Virus record (IMG/VR): IMGVR_UViG_2648501797_000006
Location: 1 to 24,757 of that record
Strand: one strand, 5' to 3'
DNA from: a virus
Lineage: Duplodnaviria > Heunggongvirae > Uroviricota > Caudoviricetes
DNA: 24,757 bases
The notes beneath the pieces were generated by a model. It was not told where the DNA came from. It saw only the letters and a program-made list of their open reading frames with translations, and did no database searches. Shown in pieces: positions 16,389 through 23,389 of this stretch; position 1 is the first letter of the stretch; every line of letters begins with the position of its first letter. Position numbers and translations under genes: made by a program.

Positions 16389-16736
16389 GACCGACCTCTA
16401 TTTCCCTGAATTTACGACGAAACTGTTCGAGCGGGCTGAAGCACTCATGCTCATAGCCTTCACGGAGGTAGATAACCCGTTGTGTTTCCGGCTCCCAACG
16501 AATGACTCTGACGGGCACTCCGTAGTGATCTTTGAACCAGCGGTTAACTTGTCGCAAAGGACTGTCTCCTTCTGCCGGTTGAAATCCCCCACAGCCCACT
16601 CAGCAAAGCTGTGGGTTACAATTTCCCTGTCACCTGGTACATTTACTGCATAGCAATACTCCACCTTCGCTTTTCCACCCGGTACAGGAAGCGCAATCAG
16701 TTGCGAGCGACGGTAGTGTGTTGTTAAACTGTTCAT
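16378..16736 (-). CDS. Hypothetical small protein, possibly split by a +1 frameshift at a G5/C5 tract
   Basis: ORF 16398..16736 has a protein-like N-terminus then a Ser-rich tail; ORF 16378..16599 (+1 frame, GTG start) has a protein-like C-terminus ([37 protein letters not shown]...). Frames cross at ccccc, 16586..16590. Confidence 0.35.
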
Positions 16737-17347
16737 GCGTTAGTTTCTCCACAACCAGAAGCAATCGACGCCACGACGCCCGGAGCTGCACACTCGCGGG
16801 CGTCATTACTTTCTGAAACGCAAAAAATTTTGTAGACAAGTGCTGCATGCTCCTGCAGCTTCGAAATTGAGAGGTACAGCTCGTCGTTAATTGCTGTCTT
16901 CTCATGCGGTTCCACTACACCGTCTTCGATTGCCGAACGAATCTGTCTGGAATAACTGCCAATCTGTTCAATGACTTCCAGCAGGCGCTGGTTAATATCG
17001 GCGTTGTCCACATCCTCGACGTCAGGAAGAGACACAAAGACGCCATTTGCAGACTGCGCCACAGCGTCAGCAATGAAGTGAGTTCCACCAGCACGTTGCA
17101 AAATCATTGCCCATCCCAGCGGGAAAATCTGATCGCCATCGGCACGAAGGCGGTTAAATAATGCGTTTTCTGTTACATCCAGCCAGTCAGCTGCTTCAGC
17201 GTAACCACCCGGCAACGCTGCGATAGTTTTTCTGACAGCTTTCACGTACCACTCAGGCTGTTTTTCTACTTTCCAGTGATGCTTACCCACGGTTAGCCTC
17301 ATCGTTCTGTGGTTTCTGTTAATCGATTTATCCATTAGATTTTTCAT
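16733..17347 (-). CDS. CII-like regulatory protein (YdaT/CP76-like, 204 aa)
   Basis: Sits directly downstream of cro; start MKNLMDKS at complement 17345..17347 overlaps the cro 3' end. Family assignment from memory, not verified. Confidence 0.45.
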
Positions 17348-17528
17348 AAAGCTCAGGTTTAAATGGCAACCGTCCGCAAGTTCTATATGCAGCTTCTGCT
17401 GCACGTCCTTTTGGAATTAACTGGCCCGGACGGTTTCGCCACTGATAAACGGCTTCAGTTGTTATGCCGAAAAAAGCAGCAACTTTCTCAATACTGCCGA
17501 AGTAGCTTTCGATATCGTCAGTTGTCAT
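17328..17528 (-). CDS. Cro-like HTH regulator (YdaS/DicC-like, 66 aa)
   Basis: Small HTH protein (...VAAFFGITTEAVYQWRNR...) divergent from the cI-like gene; GGAGGG 5 nt before the ATG. Confidence 0.65.
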   Translation of the reverse strand: MTTDDIESYFGSIEKVAAFFGITTEAVYQWRNRPGQLIPKGRAAEAAYRTCGRLPFKPELYEKSNG

Positions 17529-17625
17529 ACGCCCTCCAAACTAAGTTTTATTAGATGCTAATTACAAATCTATCTTTGGTCAATAAAAACTAAGATTACT
17601 TAGCAATTCAAGAAATGGTGCTCCT
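17529..17625. promoter_or_regulatory. Divergent immunity-region promoter/operator (OR-like)
   Basis: 97-bp gap between cro-like and cI-like genes with two AACTAAG motifs in near-palindromes: ctaagttttattag (17541..17554) and ctaagattacttag (17590..17603). Candidate leftward -35 TTGACC (complement 17579..17584) and -10 TAGCAT (complement 17555..17560). Confidence 0.55.
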
Positions 17626-18252
17626 ATGGAAACGGTTGGTCAGCGTATAAAAGCTCTGAGAAGAGTTACCGGAACGTCCCAGAAAGAATTGGGTAAATTT
17701 TGTGGAGTAAGCGACGTTGCTGTGGGGTACTGGGAGAAAGACATCAATACCCCTGGTGGGGAGGCACTTTCGAAATTAGCGAAGTTCTTCAATACGTCAA
17801 TAGATTACATTCTTTATGGTGCTGAGTTTGAAGGCAAACTCGTCACAAACATGCGCAGAGTTCCTGTAATATCGTGGGTTCAGGCTGGGCAGTTTACTGA
17901 GTGCAGGGCAGCAGAAGTGTTTAGTGAAGTGGACAAGTGGGTAGATACATCATTAAAGATTGGTGATAACTCATTTGCATTAGAGGTTAAAGGTGACTCC
18001 ATGACTAACCCTAATGGCCTCCCAACAATACCAGAAGGCGCAACAGTGATTGTAGATCCAGATGCAGAACCTCGTCATGGAAAAATAGTCATCGCTCGAC
18101 TTGATGGAACAAACGAAGCTACAGTAAAAAAATTAGTCATCGATGGCCCTCAAAAGTTTTTAGTGCCATTAAATCCTCGGTATCCCAACATCCCTATCAA
18201 TGGTAATTGCCTTATCATTGGTGTAGTCAAAGGAGTTCAATACGAACTCTAA
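17626..18252 (+). CDS. cI-like prophage repressor (HTH-XRE plus S24 LexA-like peptidase domain)
   Basis: N-terminal HTH (QKELGKFCGVSDVAVGYWE) and C-terminal autocleavage domain with GDSM serine and a downstream lysine (VKKLVIDG). Confidence 0.85.
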   Translation: METVGQRIKALRRVTGTSQKELGKFCGVSDVAVGYWEKDINTPGGEALSKLAKFFNTSIDYILYGAEFEGKLVTNMRRVPVISWVQAGQFTECRAAEVFSEVDKWVDTSLKIGDNSFALEVKGDSMTNPNGLPTIPEGATVIVDPDAEPRHGKIVIARLDGTNEATVKKLVIDGPQKFLVPLNPRYPNIPINGNCLIIGVVKGVQYEL

Positions 18253-18420
18253 GACCTCTCTTCTCTAACTAAGGCACCGAACTAAGAAAAGTTTGGTGTT
18301 TTCTCTTGCCATAATAACTAAGTTAAGTTAGATTTTATATCAAAGATAACGAACAGGCAGGACGCCCACGAAGTAGCCGCCTGGGGCATATGAAGTCCAG
18401 GATGATTCGTTGAGTCATGT
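18253..18420. promoter_or_regulatory. Candidate second operator cluster (OL-like) downstream of cI
   Basis: Three more AACTAAG copies at 18267..18273, 18280..18286 and 18316..18322 (the last followed by ttaagttag). Confidence 0.35.
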
Positions 18421-18458
18421 TGTGCCACCAGGCACTCATGTTAAAGCAGGTGTATGAA

Positions 18459-18734
18459 ATGAAAGTCCAGATTTTAAACAATAACTGTGAAGTCGTTTGG
18501 TCATACGACATAGCCGCCCCTGTAGATCAGAGCGGCGATAGCTGGACCAATGGGAAACATCAGATTATGGCTGGAGTTGTGTTCTCTTTACGCCGTGCTT
18601 TGGAACAGGCTGAAGTATTTCCATCAGACCCTGAATGGAAATGGCCTTTTTCTATTTGTCCAAATTCGGAGAGCACATTTCAGAAAATTGGTCAGAAAGT
18701 CGCACTCGAAGAGCATCAGCCAACTGTTTCCTGA
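18459..18734 (+). CDS. Hypothetical small protein downstream of cI (rex/sieB-equivalent position)
   Basis: ATG at 18459 (MKVQILNNNCEVVW...) with a weak AGG upstream; its 3' end overlaps a convergent ORF and reads less protein-like there. Confidence 0.3.
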   Translation: MKVQILNNNCEVVWSYDIAAPVDQSGDSWTNGKHQIMAGVVFSLRRALEQAEVFPSDPEWKWPFSICPNSESTFQKIGQKVALEEHQPTVS

Positions 18735-18897
18735 TTTTTTCAGGTAACTCGTCGGCATCGCAGAAACAACAACGCTCGATCATGTTGAAAGCCGATTCGT
18801 AGAACTGTTTCTGCTGAGTGTCGCTGAGACAGGAAAAGAGCGACGTTACGATGATTTTATTAATTGCATTATCAAGTTCTTTTTCATCAAAAGTCAT
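18652..18897 (-). CDS. Hypothetical small protein (81 aa), convergent with and overlapping the previous ORF
   Basis: AAGGAAAA 7 nt before ATG (complement 18895..18897); MTFDEKELDNAINKII...; no family recognised. Confidence 0.4.
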   Translation of the reverse strand: MTFDEKELDNAINKIIVTSLFSCLSDTQQKQFYESAFNMIERCCFCDADELPEKIRKQLADALRVRLSDQFSEMCSPNLDK

Positions 18898-19129
18898 TTG
18901 ATTTTCCTTTTATGTATACGGGCTTAAAAGGATACCACCGAGCCTGAAGTGGTGAAAAGACAGGCACATAACAGCTAAGTATTTTCAACCAGAGAGAATC
19001 CTTAGCGTTGTGGTGAATGCGGCTCAGCGCACGCGGGTTAAGGTTGAGGCTGACAGTCGACCTTCTGTAGATACCCACCCGCCTGGTGTGCAACCTTCGC
19101 CAGGCACCGGGAGGCACCCGGCACCACAA

Positions 19130-19197
19130 CTTTATGCTGTGTGTAGTCCTGGCGGTACCAGTTTGTACCCTTGCTTCCGGCTGGTACCGCTCTTTTT
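19130..19197 (+). ncRNA. Candidate DicF-like small RNA with an intrinsic terminator
   Basis: In a ~440-bp gap with no convincing ORF: perfect 10-bp stem gcggtaccag (19152..19161) / ctggtaccgc (19181..19190), 19-nt loop, then tcttttt. The segment ggcggtaccagtttgtaccc resembles the DicF core as recalled (ggcggtatcagttttactcc). 5' boundary not determinable. Confidence 0.35.
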
Positions 19198-19334
19198 ACA
19201 AAACAGAGAAGAGCATCACCGGACGACGGGCTCATAACCCAATCCATCCGGGCGGCTGCCACCGCAGGTGTTCTTCTCTGTTTTGTGGAGAAACTAATCG
19301 GCCTTGCAGGGTCGATATGATGAGGAGCAGCAAA

Positions 19335-19697
19335 ATGGCTAGCGAACGCAGTACTGATGTGCAGGCATTTATCGGGGAGCTGGACGGCGGCGTATTTGAA
19401 ACCAAAATCGGCGCAGTTCTCAGTGAAGTCGCTTCCGGTGTGATGAACACGAAAACCAAAGGTAAGGTCTCACTCAACCTGGAAATCGAACCATTTGATG
19501 AGAACCGTGTGAAAATCAAACACAAACTCTCATATGTTCGCCCGACTAACCGCGGGAAAATTTCCGAAGAAGACACCACCGAAACGCCGATGTATGTCAA
19601 TCGCGGTGGTCGCCTGACTATTCTGCAGGAAGACCAGGGACAATTACTGACTCTTGCCGGTGAACCTGACGGAAAACTCCGCGCAGCAGGTCATTAA
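19335..19697 (+). CDS. yfdP: YfdP-like protein (120 aa)
   Basis: GAGGAG 7 nt before ATG 19335; the track's upstream extension is GC-rich structured sequence. Assigned by length and position ahead of yfdQ/yfdR-like genes. Confidence 0.5.
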   Translation: MASERSTDVQAFIGELDGGVFETKIGAVLSEVASGVMNTKTKGKVSLNLEIEPFDENRVKIKHKLSYVRPTNRGKISEEDTTETPMYVNRGGRLTILQEDQGQLLTLAGEPDGKLRAAGH

Positions 19698-19762
19698 TAT
19701 CGTTCTTAATTAACTGATTATTTATCTCATCACTGAATATCTTTATATAGTGAGGACTTATT

Positions 19763-20587
19763 ATGTCTCAGAACTTAGACGCAACCGCAATTAATCAAAT
19801 CCATGCCCTTATTTCTGCTCAGGGTGTTAATGAAATTATCAGTAAGATTGGTGCCGATGCTGTGGCATTGCCTGAGAATTTCCGCATTCATGATCTGGAA
19901 AAATTTAATTTAAATCGCTTCCGTTTCCGTGGTGCGCTTTCCACTGCCAGCATCGATGACTTTACCCGTTATTCTAAAGATCTTGCAGATGAAGGCACCC
20001 GCTGCTTTATCGATGCTGATAATATGCGTGCCGTCAGTGTGCTTAACCTGGGTACTATTGATGAACCAGGTCACGCAGATAACACCGCCACTCTCAAACT
20101 GAAAAAGACAGCACCGTTCTCTGCTCTGTTGTCTGTTAATGGCGAGCGTAACTCCCAGAAATCACTGGCAGAATGGATTGAAGACTGGGCCGACTACCTT
20201 GTGGGCTTTGATGCTAATGGTGACACCATTCAGGCAACAAAAGCGGCTGCGGCGGTCCGTAAAATCACGATTGAAGCAAACCAGACCGCTGATTTTGAAG
20301 ATAATGACTTCAGCGGCAAACGCTCCCTGATGGAGTCTGTCGAAGCGAAGACCAAAGACATTATGCCAGTGGCATTTGAATTTAAATGCATTCCGTTTGA
20401 AGGTCTGAAAGAACGTCCGTTTAAATTACGCCTCAGCATTATCACTGGCGATCGTCCGGTACTGGTTCTGCGCATTATTCAGCTGGAGGCGGTGCAGGAA
20501 GAAATGGCTAACGAATTTCGTGATCTGCTTGTTGATAAATTCAAGGACAGCAAAGTAGAAACCTTTATTGGTACTTTCACCGCCTGA
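19763..20587 (+). CDS. yfdQ: YfdQ-like protein (DUF2303 family, 274 aa)
   Basis: 274-aa ORF with a good RBS (gtgaggactt before ATG); length and neighbourhood match the CPS-53 yfdPQRST module as recalled. Confidence 0.7.
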
Positions 20588-21909: not shown

Positions 21910-22259
21910 TGGAGCCATACAGCCTCACACTCGATGAGGCCTGTCATTTTCTCAAGATATCCAGACCGACTGCCATTAACTGGATACGCACAGGGCGTCT
22001 TCAGGCAACACGCAAAGATCCCACTAAGAATAAATCTCCTTACCTCACAACACGACAAGCCTGCATTGCGGCTCTTCAGTCTCCGCTGCATACTGTCCAG
22101 GTGAGCGCGGGTGATGGCATAACAGAGGAAAGAAAATGTCACTCTTCCGCAGAGGTGAAATATGGTACGCCAGTTTCACATTGCCGAACGGTAAAAGATT
22201 TAAACAGTCTCTTGGAACAAAGGACAAAAGGCAGGCGACAGAACTCCATGACAAGCTAA
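21909..22259 (+). CDS. Excisionase/AlpA-like DNA-binding protein (xis candidate)
   Basis: AAGAGGTGA before ATG 21909, which overlaps the upstream stop as TAATG. N-terminus [31 protein letters not shown] is an AlpA/Xis-type HTH. The 3' 124 nt overlap int in another frame, so the functional protein may be shorter. Confidence 0.5.
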
Positions 22260-23299
22260 AGGCTGAAGCATGGCGGGTCAGCAAACTTGGTGAAATACCT
22301 GATATAACGTTCGAGGAAGCATGTGTCAGGTGGCTTGAAGAGAAAGCACATAAAAAATCACTGGACGATGACAAAAGCCGGATCGGATTCTGGCTTCAAC
22401 ATTTCGCAGGAATGCAACTAAGAGACATTACTGAATCAAAAATTTATTCAGCAATGCAGAAAATGACGAACCGGCGTCATGAGGAAAACTGGAGACTCAG
22501 GGCAGAAGCATGCAGAAAAAAAGGGAAACCTGTTCCAGAATACACGCCAAAACCAGCGTCCGTTGCAACGAAGGCTACGCATCTTTCATTTATAAAGGCC
22601 CTACTAAGAGCCGCAGAGCGTGAATGGAAAATGCTGGATAAGGCACCAATTATTAAAGTGCCTCAACCAAAGAATAAACGGATCCGCTGGCTGGAGCCCC
22701 ATGAAGCACAAAGGCTGATTGATGAATGTCCGGAGCCATTAAAGTCTGTTGTTGAATTTGCACTGGCAACAGGCTTAAGACGCTCGAACATCATCAACCT
22801 TGAATGGCAACAAATAGACATGCAGCGCCGGGTGGCATGGATAAACCCGGAAGAGAGTAAATCAAACCGCGCAATTGGCGTTGCGCTGAATGATACTGCA
22901 TGTCGCGTTTTGAAAAAACAAATCGGGAATCATCACCGTTGGGTATTTGTGTACAAGGAAAGCTGTACCAAACCAGACGGAACGAAAGCGCCAACAGTAA
23001 GGAAGATGCGGTATGACGCAAACACAGCCTGGAAAGCGGCGCTGAGACGGGCTGGTATTGATGATTTCAGATTTCACGACTTGAGACACACCTGGGCAAG
23101 TTGGCTGGTTCAAGCCGGAGTCCCGTTGTCAGTGTTACAGGAAATGGGAGGCTGGGAGTCTATCGAAATGGTTCGTCGATATGCTCACCTTGCACCTAAT
23201 CACCTTACCGAACACGCACGGCAAATAGACTCGATCCTGAACCCATCGGTCCCAAATTTGTCCCAATCAAAAAATAAGGAAGGTACTAATGATGTGTAA
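22136..23299 (+). CDS. int: Tyrosine recombinase (phage integrase, 387 aa)
   Basis: AGGAAAG before ATG 22136; C-terminal catalytic region with ...[42 protein letters not shown] (R, H-x-x-R, Y). Ends 15 bp from the tRNA 3' end. Confidence 0.9.
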
Positions 23300-23313: not shown

Positions 23314-23389
23314 TGGTGCCGATAATAGGAGTCGAACCTACGACCTTCGCATTACGAATGCGCTGCTCTACCAACTGAGCTATATCGGC
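23314..23389 (-). tRNA. thrW: tRNA-Thr (anticodon CGU), 76 nt with encoded CCA
   Basis: Reverse complement reads GCCGATATAGCTCAGTTGGTAGAGCAGCGCATTCGTAATGCGAAGGTCGTAGGTTCGACTCCTATTATCGGCACCA: D-loop AGCTCAGTTGGTAGAGC, anticodon loop TTCGTAA, T-arm GGTTCGACTCC. Confidence 0.9.

What the first reader, a model, noticed from the sequence alone, without database searches (positions are those of the whole stretch)
17529..19005. Recurrent AACTAAG motif marks candidate operator clusters around the repressor gene
Exact AACTAAG occurs twice in the 97-bp cro/cI gap and three times in the ~165 bp after the cI stop. A further CTAAG/CTTAG pair lies at 18975..19005. About three copies of a 7-mer are expected by chance in the whole window on both strands, so five in ~260 bp of intergenic DNA is unlikely to be chance. 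The layout resembles a lambda-like OR/OL arrangement.
Basis: seen in the sequence. Interest (0 to 1): 0.5.

Follow-up and report, generated by a model that had tools for sequence, protein, structure and literature searches.

The report
Prophage repressor operators, P22/21 type
The repeated AACTAAG is the contacted half of an 18-bp palindromic operator for a lambdoid prophage's cI and Cro repressors: an ordinary OR/OL genetic switch built like that of phages P22 and 21, but with a different recognition sequence.

Summary
AACTAAG occurs 8 times in the window (about 2 expected), and 5 copies lie in 262 bp flanking the cI gene (Poisson P about 4e-9).

The 7-mer is not the unit. It is positions 1-7 of an 18-bp dyad, AACTAAG-N4-CTTAGnn.
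- They overlap PR (TTGACC-17-TAGCAT, minus strand).
- OL1 (18318-31) fills the spacer and -10 of PL (TTGCCA-17-TAGATT).
- OL2 (18282-95) sits inside the cI terminator hairpin.

Two items are not operators.
- The copy at 18267 is not conserved.
- The CTAAG/CTTAG pair at 18975/19001 lies in DNA shared with heteroimmune phage SfV, inside an STnc100-like sRNA.

The sites keep their positions in about 20 prophages of nine other genera. The half-site changes with the repressor's recognition helix:
- SNVAISQWER with TTAAG (P22/21)
- SDVAVGYWEK with CTAAG (this window)
- VNRVTVTGWEK with GTAGG

The DNA-binding domain is closest to P22 c2. P22 repressor is reported not to bind specifically to operators with C at position 3, which is the difference seen here.

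Verdict: a real, uncharacterised member of a well-known kind, of low interest. No binding data exist.

The parts
17328..17528 (-). cro (66 aa, P22_Cro family; recognition helix TTEAVYQWRN)
   Evidence: Pfam PF14549, E 4e-11. 31% identical to phage 21 Cro. Closest solved structure is N15 Cro, 2HIN.
17539..17556 (+). OR1: AACTAAGTTTTATTAGAT (core CTAAG-N4-ATTAG at 17541-54). It runs from the last two bases of the PR -10, across the inferred PR start, to the cro ribosome-binding site.
   Evidence: One of only three exact CTAA-N6-TTAG sites in the window. PWM score 26.7, with the PWM built from relatives only. Conserved in all relatives. Same register as the phage 21 operator nearest cro.
17555..17583 (-). 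PR promoter for cro: -35 TTGACC (17583-17578), 17-bp spacer, -10 TAGCAT (17560-17555)
   Evidence: Promoter scan. GGTCAA and TAnnAT are conserved in the alignment. Aligns with phage 21 TTGACT-16-GATAAT. The transcription start is not mapped.
17563..17580 (+). OR2: weak, degenerate site TACAAATCTATCTTTGGT (core CAAAT-CTAT-CTTTG at 17565-78) that fills the PR spacer
   Evidence: PWM score only 6.7, within the null range. A dyad-like site is kept at this position in relatives, with a perfect CTTAG half in mEp460 and CTAAT..ATTAG in Rahnella. Positional match to phage 21 OR2 ACTTAAGATTCCTTTGGTG. Its centre is 24 bp from OR1 and 25 bp from OR3.
17588..17605 (+). OR3: AACTAAGATTACTTAGCA (core is the perfect palindrome CTAAG-ATTA-CTTAG at 17590-603), next to cI. 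It presumably overlaps PRM.
   Evidence: PWM 22.0. CTAAGAT..CTTAG is kept in 17 of the 24 aligned sequences and with a single-base change in 6 more. The conserved TAAGAT (17591-96) is a candidate PRM -10 (inference).
17626..18252 (+). cI repressor, 208 aa: N-terminal HTH (recognition helix SDVAVGYWEK) and C-terminal S24 self-cleaving domain. Ala87-Gly88, Ser125 and Lys168 align with lambda Ala111-Gly112, Ser149 and Lys192.
   Evidence: Pfam HTH_3 and Peptidase_S24. In the PDB, the N-terminal domain is closest to P22 c2 (1ADR, 2R1J; E 2e-9) and the C-terminal domain to lambda cI (E 7.5e-28). 48.8% identical to phage 21 cI.
18267..18273 (+). AACTAAG copy that is probably not an operator. It is the A-rich 5' flank of the terminator stem.
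   Evidence: Not conserved: AACCAAA in mEp460, and shifted or absent in other relatives. It has no dyad partner (CTAAGGCACCGAAC). It would overlap OL2. It is not among the top 25 PWM hits. Its AAGG pairs with the U-tract in the fold.
18271..18302 (+). Intrinsic terminator-like hairpin for cI: core stem CACCGAAC/GUUUGGUG (18275-98) followed by UUUUCUCUU
   Evidence: RNA fold -15.1 kcal/mol, z -3.0. Kept in 10 relatives, with one compensatory pair (CG to UA) and several G-U-compatible changes. The simple terminator scan did not list it.
18280..18297 (+). OL2: AACTAAGAAAAGTTTGGT (core CTAAG-AAAA-GTTTG at 18282-95), embedded in the loop and 3' arm of the cI terminator, 8 bp upstream of the PL -35
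   Evidence: PWM 12.6, which is marginal. The equivalent site scores 17-22 in LLS, Enterobacter and Kluyvera, and is a full palindrome without a hairpin in Yersinia, Providencia and Proteus. Same 8-bp distance to the -35 as the annotated phage 21 OL2. OL1-OL2 spacing is 36 bp here, 35 bp in phage 21 and 33-34 bp in the distant relatives.
18306..18334 (+). PL promoter: -35 TTGCCA (18306-11), 17-bp spacer, -10 TAGATT (18329-34). It drives the early-left operon (phrog_3195, yfdP-like, yfdQ-like, phosphatase, then integrase).
   Evidence: Promoter scan. Aligns base for base with phage 21 TTGACC-17-TAAATT, whose pL start is annotated. Downstream genes.
18316..18333 (+). OL1: AACTAAGTTAAGTTAGAT (core 18318-31), occupying the PL spacer and the first bases of the -10
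   Evidence: Best PWM hit in the window, 27.7. Identical in 11 relatives from 6 genera. Positional match to phage 21 OL1 AATTAAGAAGTCTTAAAT.
17315..18347 (.). Extent of the exchangeable immunity module (cro, OR, cI, terminator/OL2, PL/OL1)
   Evidence: Similarity to heteroimmune SfV stops at 17314 and resumes at 18348 at 99.5%. The module is present in 514 of 5426 complete E. coli genomes.

Best explanation
The window holds the immunity region of an SfV/lambda-like E. coli prophage.

The unit. AACTAAG is positions 1-7, the protein-contacted half, of an 18-bp dyad-symmetric operator (AACTAAG-N4-CTTAGnn). This operator is recognised by dimers of the prophage repressor cI and, by inference, of Cro.

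OR. Three sites, 24 and 25 bp apart, lie between the divergent cro and cI genes. OR1 covers the PR start and OR2 fills the PR spacer, so bound cI shuts off cro and the early-right operon. OR3, the perfect palindrome next to cI, overlaps PRM. It would let high cI or Cro turn cI synthesis down.

OL. Downstream of cI, OL1 sits in the spacer and -10 of PL and blocks the early-left operon. A weaker OL2 lies 36 bp upstream, within the DNA that encodes the cI terminator hairpin.

Induction. cI carries the RecA-dependent self-cleavage motifs, so DNA damage would release all of these promoters.

Relation to P22/21. The geometry and the promoter/operator register match those of phages P22 and 21. The specificity differs: C instead of T at operator position 3, and A instead of T at position 2. 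The recognition helix changes in step (SNVAISQWER to SDVAVGYWEK in cI, SDAAVSQWK to TTEAVYQWRN in Cro), which would make the phage heteroimmune to P22/21.

Shown versus inferred. Shown here: the sequence anatomy, conservation, covariation and homology. Inferred: binding, affinity order, cooperativity, PRM position and activation, and the heteroimmunity.
For: 1. Enrichment. 5 of 8 copies fall in 262 bp (P about 4e-9).
2. Dyad structure. The only three exact CTAA-N6-TTAG sites in 24.7 kb are at OR1, OR3 and OL1.
3. Independent PWM. A PWM built only from relatives puts its top four window hits at 18316, 17539, 17588 and 18280 (27.6, 26.7, 22.0, 12.6). The next hit is 9.9, and the mean null maximum is 10.
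4. Gene context. Divergent cro (P22_Cro) and cI (HTH_3 + Peptidase_S24), with a cII-like gene and an O-like gene beyond cro.
5. Promoters. PR and PL are found by the consensus scan exactly where the operators lie.
6. Conservation. The sites keep their positions in about 20 loci with cI 63-90% identical, from Enterobacter, Kosakonia, Kluyvera, Serratia, Rahnella, Yersinia, Rouxiella, Providencia and Proteus, while the flanks diverge. 86 of 98 PWM hits of at least 12 in those loci fall in the OR/OL zones.
7. Helix/half-site covariation within one geometry. TTAAG goes with SN/HVAISQWE, CTAAG with SDVAVGYWEK, and GTAGG with VNRVTVTGWEK.
8. Match to phage 21. Base-for-base positional correspondence with that record's annotated OR, OL and pL. 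The phage 21 N-terminal domain differs from the crystallised P22 c2 domain at 2 of 68 residues.
9. Structure and published binding. The N-terminal domain is closest to P22 c2 among solved structures. In P22R, positions 2-7 and 12-17 are contacted and 8-11 are not, and a T-to-C change at position 3 abolishes specific binding (PMC4267663).
10. Module boundaries. The sites lie inside the exchangeable immunity module, which ends within about 15 bp of the PL -10.
Against: - There are no binding, footprint or transcript data for this immunity type, and I found no paper on it.
- OR2 (PWM 6.7) and OL2 (12.6) are not significant on sequence alone. They rest on positional conservation.
- The promoter scan finds about as many promoter-like sites as in shuffled sequence (4 against 3.1), so the promoter calls lean on the match to phage 21.
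- The phage 21 features are a depositor's annotation and contain at least a label slip: two sites are both called OR2, and the cI start looks truncated.
- PRM is not located. Neither candidate -10 (TAAGAT at 17591-96, TAGCAA at 17601-06) has a recognisable -35.
- The OL1-OL2 spacing of 36 bp is not an integral number of helical turns, so pairwise cooperativity there is uncertain.
- All AACTAAG copies point the same way, which a pure palindrome model does not require. I attribute this to the right halves overlapping promoter elements (TTAGAT).
Confidence: 0.85

Rival explanations
1. Only three sites are real operators (OR1, OR3, OL1). The middle OR site and the copy inside the hairpin (OL2) are not bound. 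The 18280 copy exists only because a terminator stem-loop happens to contain it.
For: The PWM scores of OR2 (6.7) and OL2 (12.6) lie within or near the null maximum, whose mean is 10. The hairpin is itself conserved and shows a compensatory change, so it alone could explain conservation of 18275-18298.
Against: A dyad-like site sits at both positions in every clade. At the OL2 position, Yersinia, Providencia and Proteus have a full palindrome and no hairpin, and LLS and Enterobacter score 20-22. OL2 lies the same 8 bp from the -35 as the annotated phage 21 OL2. In the hairpin loop, which needs no pairing, 9 of the 10 aligned relatives keep TAAG.
Confidence: 0.2
2. AACTAAG copies are direct repeats read by a protein that binds non-palindromic repeats, as the P2 C repressor does, or they are iteron-like or host-factor sites. 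They are not halves of palindromes.
For: All eight copies in the window, including the five at issue, are on the + strand. The left half is much better conserved than the right half.
Against: A TTAG partner lies exactly 6 bp after CTAA at OR1, OR3 and OL1, and nowhere else in the window. Those partners are conserved in relatives. The repressor is an HTH protein homologous to P22 c2, which binds 18-bp dyads as a dimer (PMC4267663). The spacing of the direct copies is irregular (49, 13 and 36 bp).
Confidence: 0.04
3. The clustering is a by-product of AT-rich promoter and terminator sequence and shared ancestry, with no sequence-specific protein recognition.
For: The two gaps are AT-rich (61% A+T). 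Parts of the motif overlap promoter-like hexamers (TAAGAT, TAGATT).
Against: With local composition the expectation is 0.054 copies against 5 observed. The sites are conserved across loci whose flanks have diverged. The half-site changes together with the recognition helix in related repressors.
Confidence: 0.02

Closest known systems
Phage P22 c2 repressor and phage 21 cI with their OR/OL operators (18-bp sites, consensus ATTTAAG-N4-CTTAAAT; solved complex PDB 2R1J)
   Same: - Homologous HTH domain. It is the best PDB match for the N-terminal domain (E 2e-9), 44% identical to the P22 c2 domain, and the whole protein is 48.8% identical to phage 21 cI.
- Same 7+4+7 dyad geometry.
- Same register of OR1, OR2 and OR3 relative to PR.
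- Same placement of OL1 in the PL spacer/-10 and of OL2 8 bp upstream of the -35.
- The best palindrome is the site next to cI in both.
- Cro belongs to the P22_Cro family.
   Different: - The half-site is AACTAAG rather than A(T/A)TTAAG, so position 3 is C. P22 repressor binds a position-3 T-to-C operator only non-specifically (PMC4267663).
- The recognition helix is SDVAVGYWEK against SNVAISQWER.
- cI has a 22-nt leader with a Shine-Dalgarno-like GGTG, whereas in phage 21 the ATG abuts OR3.
- The cI terminator is fused with OL2 instead of lying upstream of an OL3.
- No OL3 was found.
Phage lambda OR/OL switch
   Same: - Divergent cI/cro with three operators 24-25 bp apart (23-24 bp in lambda, from memory).
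- A second operator cluster at PL, downstream of and co-directional with cI.
- A C-terminal domain homologous to lambda cI (E 7.5e-28), with the self-cleavage site and Ser/Lys dyad aligned.
- A cII-like gene after cro.
   Different: - Operators are 18 bp with the symmetry axis between base pairs, not 17 bp with a central base pair.
- The operator sequence is unrelated, and the N-terminal domain is of the P22 type.
- There are no rexAB genes between cI and OL.
- No N gene and no boxA/boxB were seen after PL.
- OR-OL distance is about 750 bp, against about 2.4 kb in lambda (from memory).
- Only two OL sites are evident.
Shigella phage SfV immunity region (GenBank U82619, 'putative operator region')
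   Same: Same genome backbone. The flanks 16700-17314 (87% identical) and 18348-20500 (99.5% identical) are shared. The cro/cI/early-left layout is the same.
   Different: The immunity cassette differs. SfV cI is unrelated in its N-terminus and its gap carries TACA/TGTA-type repeats, with no AACTAAG sites. SfV therefore serves here as a heteroimmune control.

Membership tests
Lambdoid immunity region (cI/cro switch with OR and OL) | Divergently transcribed cI-like (HTH + S24 self-cleaving) and cro-like genes separated by a short gap | tested here: met
   cI is 17626-18252 (+), with HTH_3 and Peptidase_S24. cro is 17328-17528 (-), P22_Cro family. The gap is 97 bp.
Lambdoid immunity region (cI/cro switch with OR and OL) | Three related dyad-symmetric sites in the gap, overlapping the divergent promoters | tested here: met
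   There are two strong sites and one weak site, with centres 24 and 25 bp apart. PR overlaps OR1 and OR2. PRM itself was not located.
Lambdoid immunity region (cI/cro switch with OR and OL) | A second set of the same sites overlapping PL, downstream of and co-directional with cI | tested here: met
   OL1 lies in the PL spacer/-10 and OL2 lies 36 bp upstream. A third OL site was looked for and not found. The 18267 copy fails the conservation test.
Lambdoid immunity region (cI/cro switch with OR and OL) | The repressor and Cro physically bind these sites and repress PR and PL | not testable with these tools
   This needs EMSA or footprinting and reporter assays. Only covariation of recognition helix and half-site supports it.
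P22 c2 / phage 21 cI operator class | Repressor N-terminal domain homologous to P22 c2 | tested here: met
   1ADR, 2R1J and 3JXB are the best N-terminal-domain hits (E about 2e-9). 44% identical to the P22 c2 domain in the alignment.
P22 c2 / phage 21 cI operator class | 18-bp dyad with contacted positions 2-7 and 12-17, a 4-bp non-contacted centre, and the axis between bp 9 and 10 | tested here: met
   AACTAAG-N4-CTTAGnn. The conserved columns are positions 3-7 and 12-16 and the centre varies (PWM information content). The P22 geometry is taken from PMC4267663.
P22 c2 / phage 21 cI operator class | Half-site sequence TTAAG (T at position 3), i.e. P22/21 immunity specificity | tested here: not met
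   Position 3 is C in all strong sites. P22R binds 3C operators only non-specifically (PMC4267663). This locus works like the P22/21 class but is not a member of its immunity group.
Intrinsic (rho-independent) terminator, for 18271-18302 | Stable G+C-containing hairpin followed directly by a U-tract at the end of a gene, with pairing maintained in relatives | tested here: met
   -15.1 kcal/mol, z -3.0, followed by UUUUCUCUU. 11 pairs are kept in 10 relatives, with one compensatory pair. The simple scan did not list it. Termination itself was not tested.
STnc100 sRNA (Rfam RF02076), for the 18975-19005 pair's surroundings | Score at or above the Rfam gathering threshold over the full model | tested here: inconclusive
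   44.8 bits against a gathering score of 47. E 6e-8, full-length match 1-206 at 18977-19199 (+).

The most novel reading that the evidence does not exclude
OL2 is a dual-use element. As DNA, the stretch 18275-18298 is a repressor operator upstream of PL. As RNA, the same stretch is the stem-loop of cI's own intrinsic terminator.

In more distant relatives (Yersinia, Providencia, Proteus), the operator and the terminator are separate. In the E. coli, Enterobacter, Kosakonia, Kluyvera and Rahnella clade, the flanks of the operator dyad have been extended into a terminator. Repressor bound at OL2 could then also act as a roadblock that helps insulate PL from PRM read-through.

Separately, the natural change of T to C at operator position 3 is matched by a new Tyr in the recognition helices of both cI and Cro. 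This offers a ready-made specificity switch for the P22-type recognition code.
Probability: 0.35. Interest if true: 0.3.

Novelty: new member of a known kind. Interest (0 to 1): 0.2.

Why it matters
This immunity cassette sits in about 9.5% of complete E. coli genomes (514 of 5426) and in prophages of many enterobacterial genera. Its operators are not annotated in any record I saw. Knowing them helps in four ways:
- It allows prediction of superinfection immunity groups.
- It supports correct annotation of PR and PL in these prophages.
- It allows design of reporters or orthogonal repressor/operator pairs.
- It adds a natural data point (C at position 3 with Tyr in the helix) to the well-studied P22 repressor recognition problem.

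It does not change any concept. It is the textbook lambdoid switch with a different address label.

Tried and rejected
1. The 7-mer as the functional unit or as direct repeats. Rejected because TTAG partners occur at fixed spacing and are conserved.
2. The 18267 copy as OL3. Rejected for four reasons: it is not conserved (mEp460 has AACCAAA), it has no dyad partner, it would overlap OL2, and its PWM score is low. It looks like the A-tract flank of the terminator.
3. The CTAAG/CTTAG pair at 18975/19001 as an operator. Rejected because its halves are 21 bp apart. It also lies in DNA that is 99% identical in heteroimmune SfV and absent from homoimmune LLS, inside an STnc100-like RNA.
4. The other three AACTAAG copies (1197, 2950, 22416). 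They have no partner half, and the best PWM score among them is 5.4. The count matches chance.
5. Rfam at gathering threshold found nothing in the region.
6. Literature. No paper on mEp460 operators turned up. The only hit for 'AACTAAG' with operator was a flank in EMSA oligonucleotides for another phage. The 2008 P22R-DNA structure paper is not held, so which residue reads position 3 is my inference.
7. PRM location. Two candidate -10 hexamers, neither with a -35. Left unresolved.
8. An N/nut antitermination system after PL. The first + strand ORF (18417-18734) is not Arg-rich or N-like, and no boxA was seen in the window.
9. The terminator scan missed the cI hairpin. I relied on folding and alignment instead.
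Full report
**1. The observation**

Two copies (17539, 17588) lie in the 97-bp gap between cro (17328-17528, minus strand) and cI (17626-18252, plus strand). Three copies (18267, 18280, 18316) lie within 70 bp after the cI stop codon.

The window holds 8 copies, all on the + strand, against 2.07 expected from dinucleotide shuffles. No shuffle out of 100 reached 8. Using the A+T-rich local composition of the two gaps, 0.054 copies are expected. P(>=5) is 3.5e-9, or about 3e-5 after correction for all 7-mers. The three copies elsewhere (1197, 2950, 22416) match chance and have no partner half-site.

**2. What the unit really is**

Each strong copy is followed, after four variable bases, by the inverted half.

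| Site | Core sequence | Coordinates |
|---|---|---|
| OR1 | CTAAG-TTTT-ATTAG | 17541-54 |
| OR3 | CTAAG-ATTA-CTTAG (perfect palindrome) | 17590-603 |
| OL1 | CTAAG-TTAA-GTTAG | 18318-31 |

These are the only three exact CTAA-N6-TTAG matches in 24.7 kb. AACTAAG is therefore positions 1-7 of an 18-bp dyad.

Two further sites are degenerate:
- OR2, CAAAT-CTAT-CTTTG at 17565-78, lies between the two OR sites with centres 24 and 25 bp away.
- OL2, CTAAG-AAAA-GTTTG at 18282-95, carries the middle copy of the downstream cluster.

**3. Gene and promoter context**

- cI has an HTH_3 domain and a Peptidase_S24 domain. cro belongs to the P22_Cro family. Beyond cro lie a CII-like activator gene and an O-like replication gene.
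- Downstream of cI, on the same strand, come small ORFs, yfdP/yfdQ-like genes, a phosphatase gene and an integrase gene next to a tRNA. This is a lambdoid, SfV-like prophage arm.
- In the alignment to lambda cI, Ala87-Gly88, Ser125 and Lys168 fall on the lambda self-cleavage residues. The repressor should therefore be SOS-inducible (inference).
- The consensus scan places PR at TTGACC(17583-78)-17-TAGCAT(17560-55) on the minus strand, and PL at TTGCCA(18306-11)-17-TAGATT(18329-34) on the plus strand.
- OR2 fills the PR spacer and OR1 spans the end of the PR -10 and the start region. OL1 fills the PL spacer and the start of the PL -10. OL2 ends 8 bp upstream of the PL -35.

**4. Comparative evidence**

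The same cassette is in phages vB_EcoM-689R6 and 569R4, mEp460_4F5 (about 95%) and LLS (about 77% DNA identity). It is also in 514 of 5426 complete E. coli genomes.

A scan of one genome per species returned about 20 loci with cI 63-90% identical. They come from Enterobacter, Kosakonia, Kluyvera, Serratia, Rahnella, Yersinia, Rouxiella, Providencia and Proteus.
- In the alignments, OR1, the PR -10 (TAnnAT), the OR2 half-site next to the PR -35, GGTCAA (the PR -35) and OR3 form conserved blocks in otherwise diverged DNA.
- In most loci the same holds for TTGAC, OL1 and ATTT.
- A PWM built only from the relatives' sites ranks the window as 18316 (27.6), 17539 (26.7), 17588 (22.0) and 18280 (12.6). 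The next hit scores 9.9, and the mean null maximum is 10.
- In the relatives, 86 of 98 hits scoring at least 12 fall in the two zones.

**5. Link to a known system**

Phage 21 cI is the closest annotated relative (48.8% identity). Its record marks OR sites, OL1-3 and the pL start.

The phage 21 sites read AATTAAG-N4-CTTAAAT. Its PL is TTGACC-aataaaTTAAGaagtcTTAAATT. The window has TTGCCA-taataaCTAAGttaagTTAGATT, the same register base for base. The OR register is also the same.

The phage 21 N-terminal domain differs at only 2 of 68 residues from the crystallised P22 c2 domain. P22 c2 is the best PDB match for the window's N-terminal domain.

For P22 repressor, positions 2-7 and 12-17 of the 18-bp site are contacted and positions 8-11 are not. 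A T-to-C change at position 3 reduces binding to non-specific levels (PMC4267663). The window's operators carry exactly that change.

**6. Covariation**

Within the same operator geometry, the half-site tracks the recognition helix:

| Recognition helix | Half-sites | Hosts or phages |
|---|---|---|
| SNVAISQWER / SHVAISQWEK | TTAAG..CTTAA | P22/21, Photorhabdus, Xenorhabdus |
| SDVAVGYWEK | CTAAG..CTTAG | this family |
| VNRVTVTGWEK | GTAGG..CCTAC | Proteus, Morganella |

Cro changes in parallel, from SDAAVSQWK to TTEAVYQWRN. In N15 Cro, the Tyr at the matching helix position touches the outer base pairs (PMC6649833). I infer that the new Tyr in both proteins reads positions 2-3. This is not tested.

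**7. The downstream cluster in detail**

The segment 18271-18302 folds into a 13-pair hairpin followed by U-rich sequence (-15.1 kcal/mol, z -3.0). The hairpin is kept in ten relatives, with one compensatory pair and several wobble-compatible changes. It is most likely the cI terminator.

OL2 lies in its loop and 3' arm. In Yersinia, Providencia and Proteus the same position holds a full palindrome without a hairpin, 33-34 bp from OL1. The spacing is 36 bp here and 35 bp in phage 21. OL2 is therefore probably real and has become fused with the terminator in this clade.

The first copy (18267) is not conserved, has no partner, and pairs with the U-tract as an A-rich flank. I do not count it as an operator.

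**8. The extra pair at 18975-19005**

Similarity to heteroimmune SfV stops at 17314 and resumes at 18348 at 99.5%. The resumed stretch includes this pair. Homoimmune LLS lacks it. SfV has a different cI and different repeats in its gap.

The pair lies at the 5' end of a full-length match to the sRNA family STnc100 (18977-19199, 44.8 bits against a gathering score of 47, E 6e-8). It is not part of the operator system.

The same comparison delimits the exchangeable immunity module as 17315-18347. That module ends about 14 bp after the PL -10.

**9. Mechanism, with status**

- Shown: the anatomy, conservation, covariation and homology described above.
- Inferred:
  - cI dimers occupy OR1/OR2 and OL1/OL2 to block PR and PL.
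  - OR3 overlaps PRM and mediates negative autoregulation and Cro action.
  - RecA-stimulated cleavage induces the prophage.
  - The phage is heteroimmune to P22/21.
- Unresolved:
  - The position of PRM is not settled. TAAGAT inside OR3 is kept in all but two of the aligned loci and matches the phage 21 arrangement. TAGCAA would put OR2 at about -42, as in lambda.
  - It is not known whether OR2 activates PRM.
  - It is not known whether OL and OR, about 750 bp apart, loop.

**10. Verdict**

It is a new, uncharacterised specificity variant of the P22/21-type lambdoid switch. It is useful for annotation and as a natural specificity-switch example, but conceptually ordinary.

Noticed in passing
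window 18977-19199 (+): Full-length match to Rfam STnc100 (RF02076), a gammaproteobacterial sRNA: 44.8 bits, just under the gathering score of 47, E 6e-8. It ends in a GGCGGUACCAG...CUGGUACCGC hairpin plus U-tract. It lies in the 437-bp non-coding stretch of the early-left operon, which is shared with SfV.
   Followed up: partly
window 18348-18410 (+): The 5' leader of the PL transcript (GAACAGGCAGGACGCCCACGAAGTAGCCGCCUGGGGCAUAUGAAGUCCAGGAUGAUUCG) is conserved in mEp460, SfV, Kluyvera and Kosakonia loci. Its hairpin CCUGG/CCAGG shows compensatory changes (CCCGA/UCGGG, CCCCA/UGGGG) at 3 pairs, though only 5 sequences were compared. From memory it resembles the start of the lambda PL transcript (AUCAGCAGGACGC...CAUGAAGG). 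In Kluyvera a boxA-like CGCTCTTTAACA follows, but none is seen in the window.
   Followed up: partly
window 17314/17315 and 18347/18348: Sharp mosaic junctions with phage SfV. Flanks are 87% and 99.5% identical, and the cassette between them is unrelated. The right junction falls about 14 bp after the PL -10, at the start of the PL transcript.
   Followed up: yes
window 22136-23299 (+) and 23317-23389 (-): An integrase gene is followed 18 bp later by a tRNA gene (71.8 bits). This is probably the prophage end and its attachment site at a tRNA.
   Followed up: no
L011 642-706, L018 1009-1075, L027 933-999: In the Serratia aquatilis locus and two metagenome-assembled genome loci (an uncultured Serratia and an uncultured gammaproteobacterium), a second pair of high-scoring operator-like sites 49 bp apart lies 440-860 bp upstream of cI (beyond cro). 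No high-scoring site follows cI there. The Rouxiella loci L014, L015 and L017 also show no high-scoring site after cI.
   Followed up: no
window 18307-18322: The 16-mer TGCCATAATAACTAAG (PL -35 end, spacer and the OL1 left half) is identical to the common 3' flank of EMSA oligonucleotides used for an unrelated Stx-phage repressor study (PMC5977221). The origin of that flank is unknown to me.
   Followed up: no
L005 (phage 21, OL657228) 1492-1570: The deposited phage 21 cI CDS starts at locus position 1570. The reading frame from the ATG at 1492 encodes MNTQLMGERIR..., nearly identical to the crystallised P22 c2 N-terminus, so the annotated start looks too far downstream. Two OR sites in that record are both labelled OR2.
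   Followed up: partly
window 18652-18897 (-): An 81-aa ORF (phrog_3311, unknown function) is oriented against the PL transcript. It converges on and overlaps the 3' end of the + strand ORF 18417-18734 (phrog_3195).
   Followed up: no
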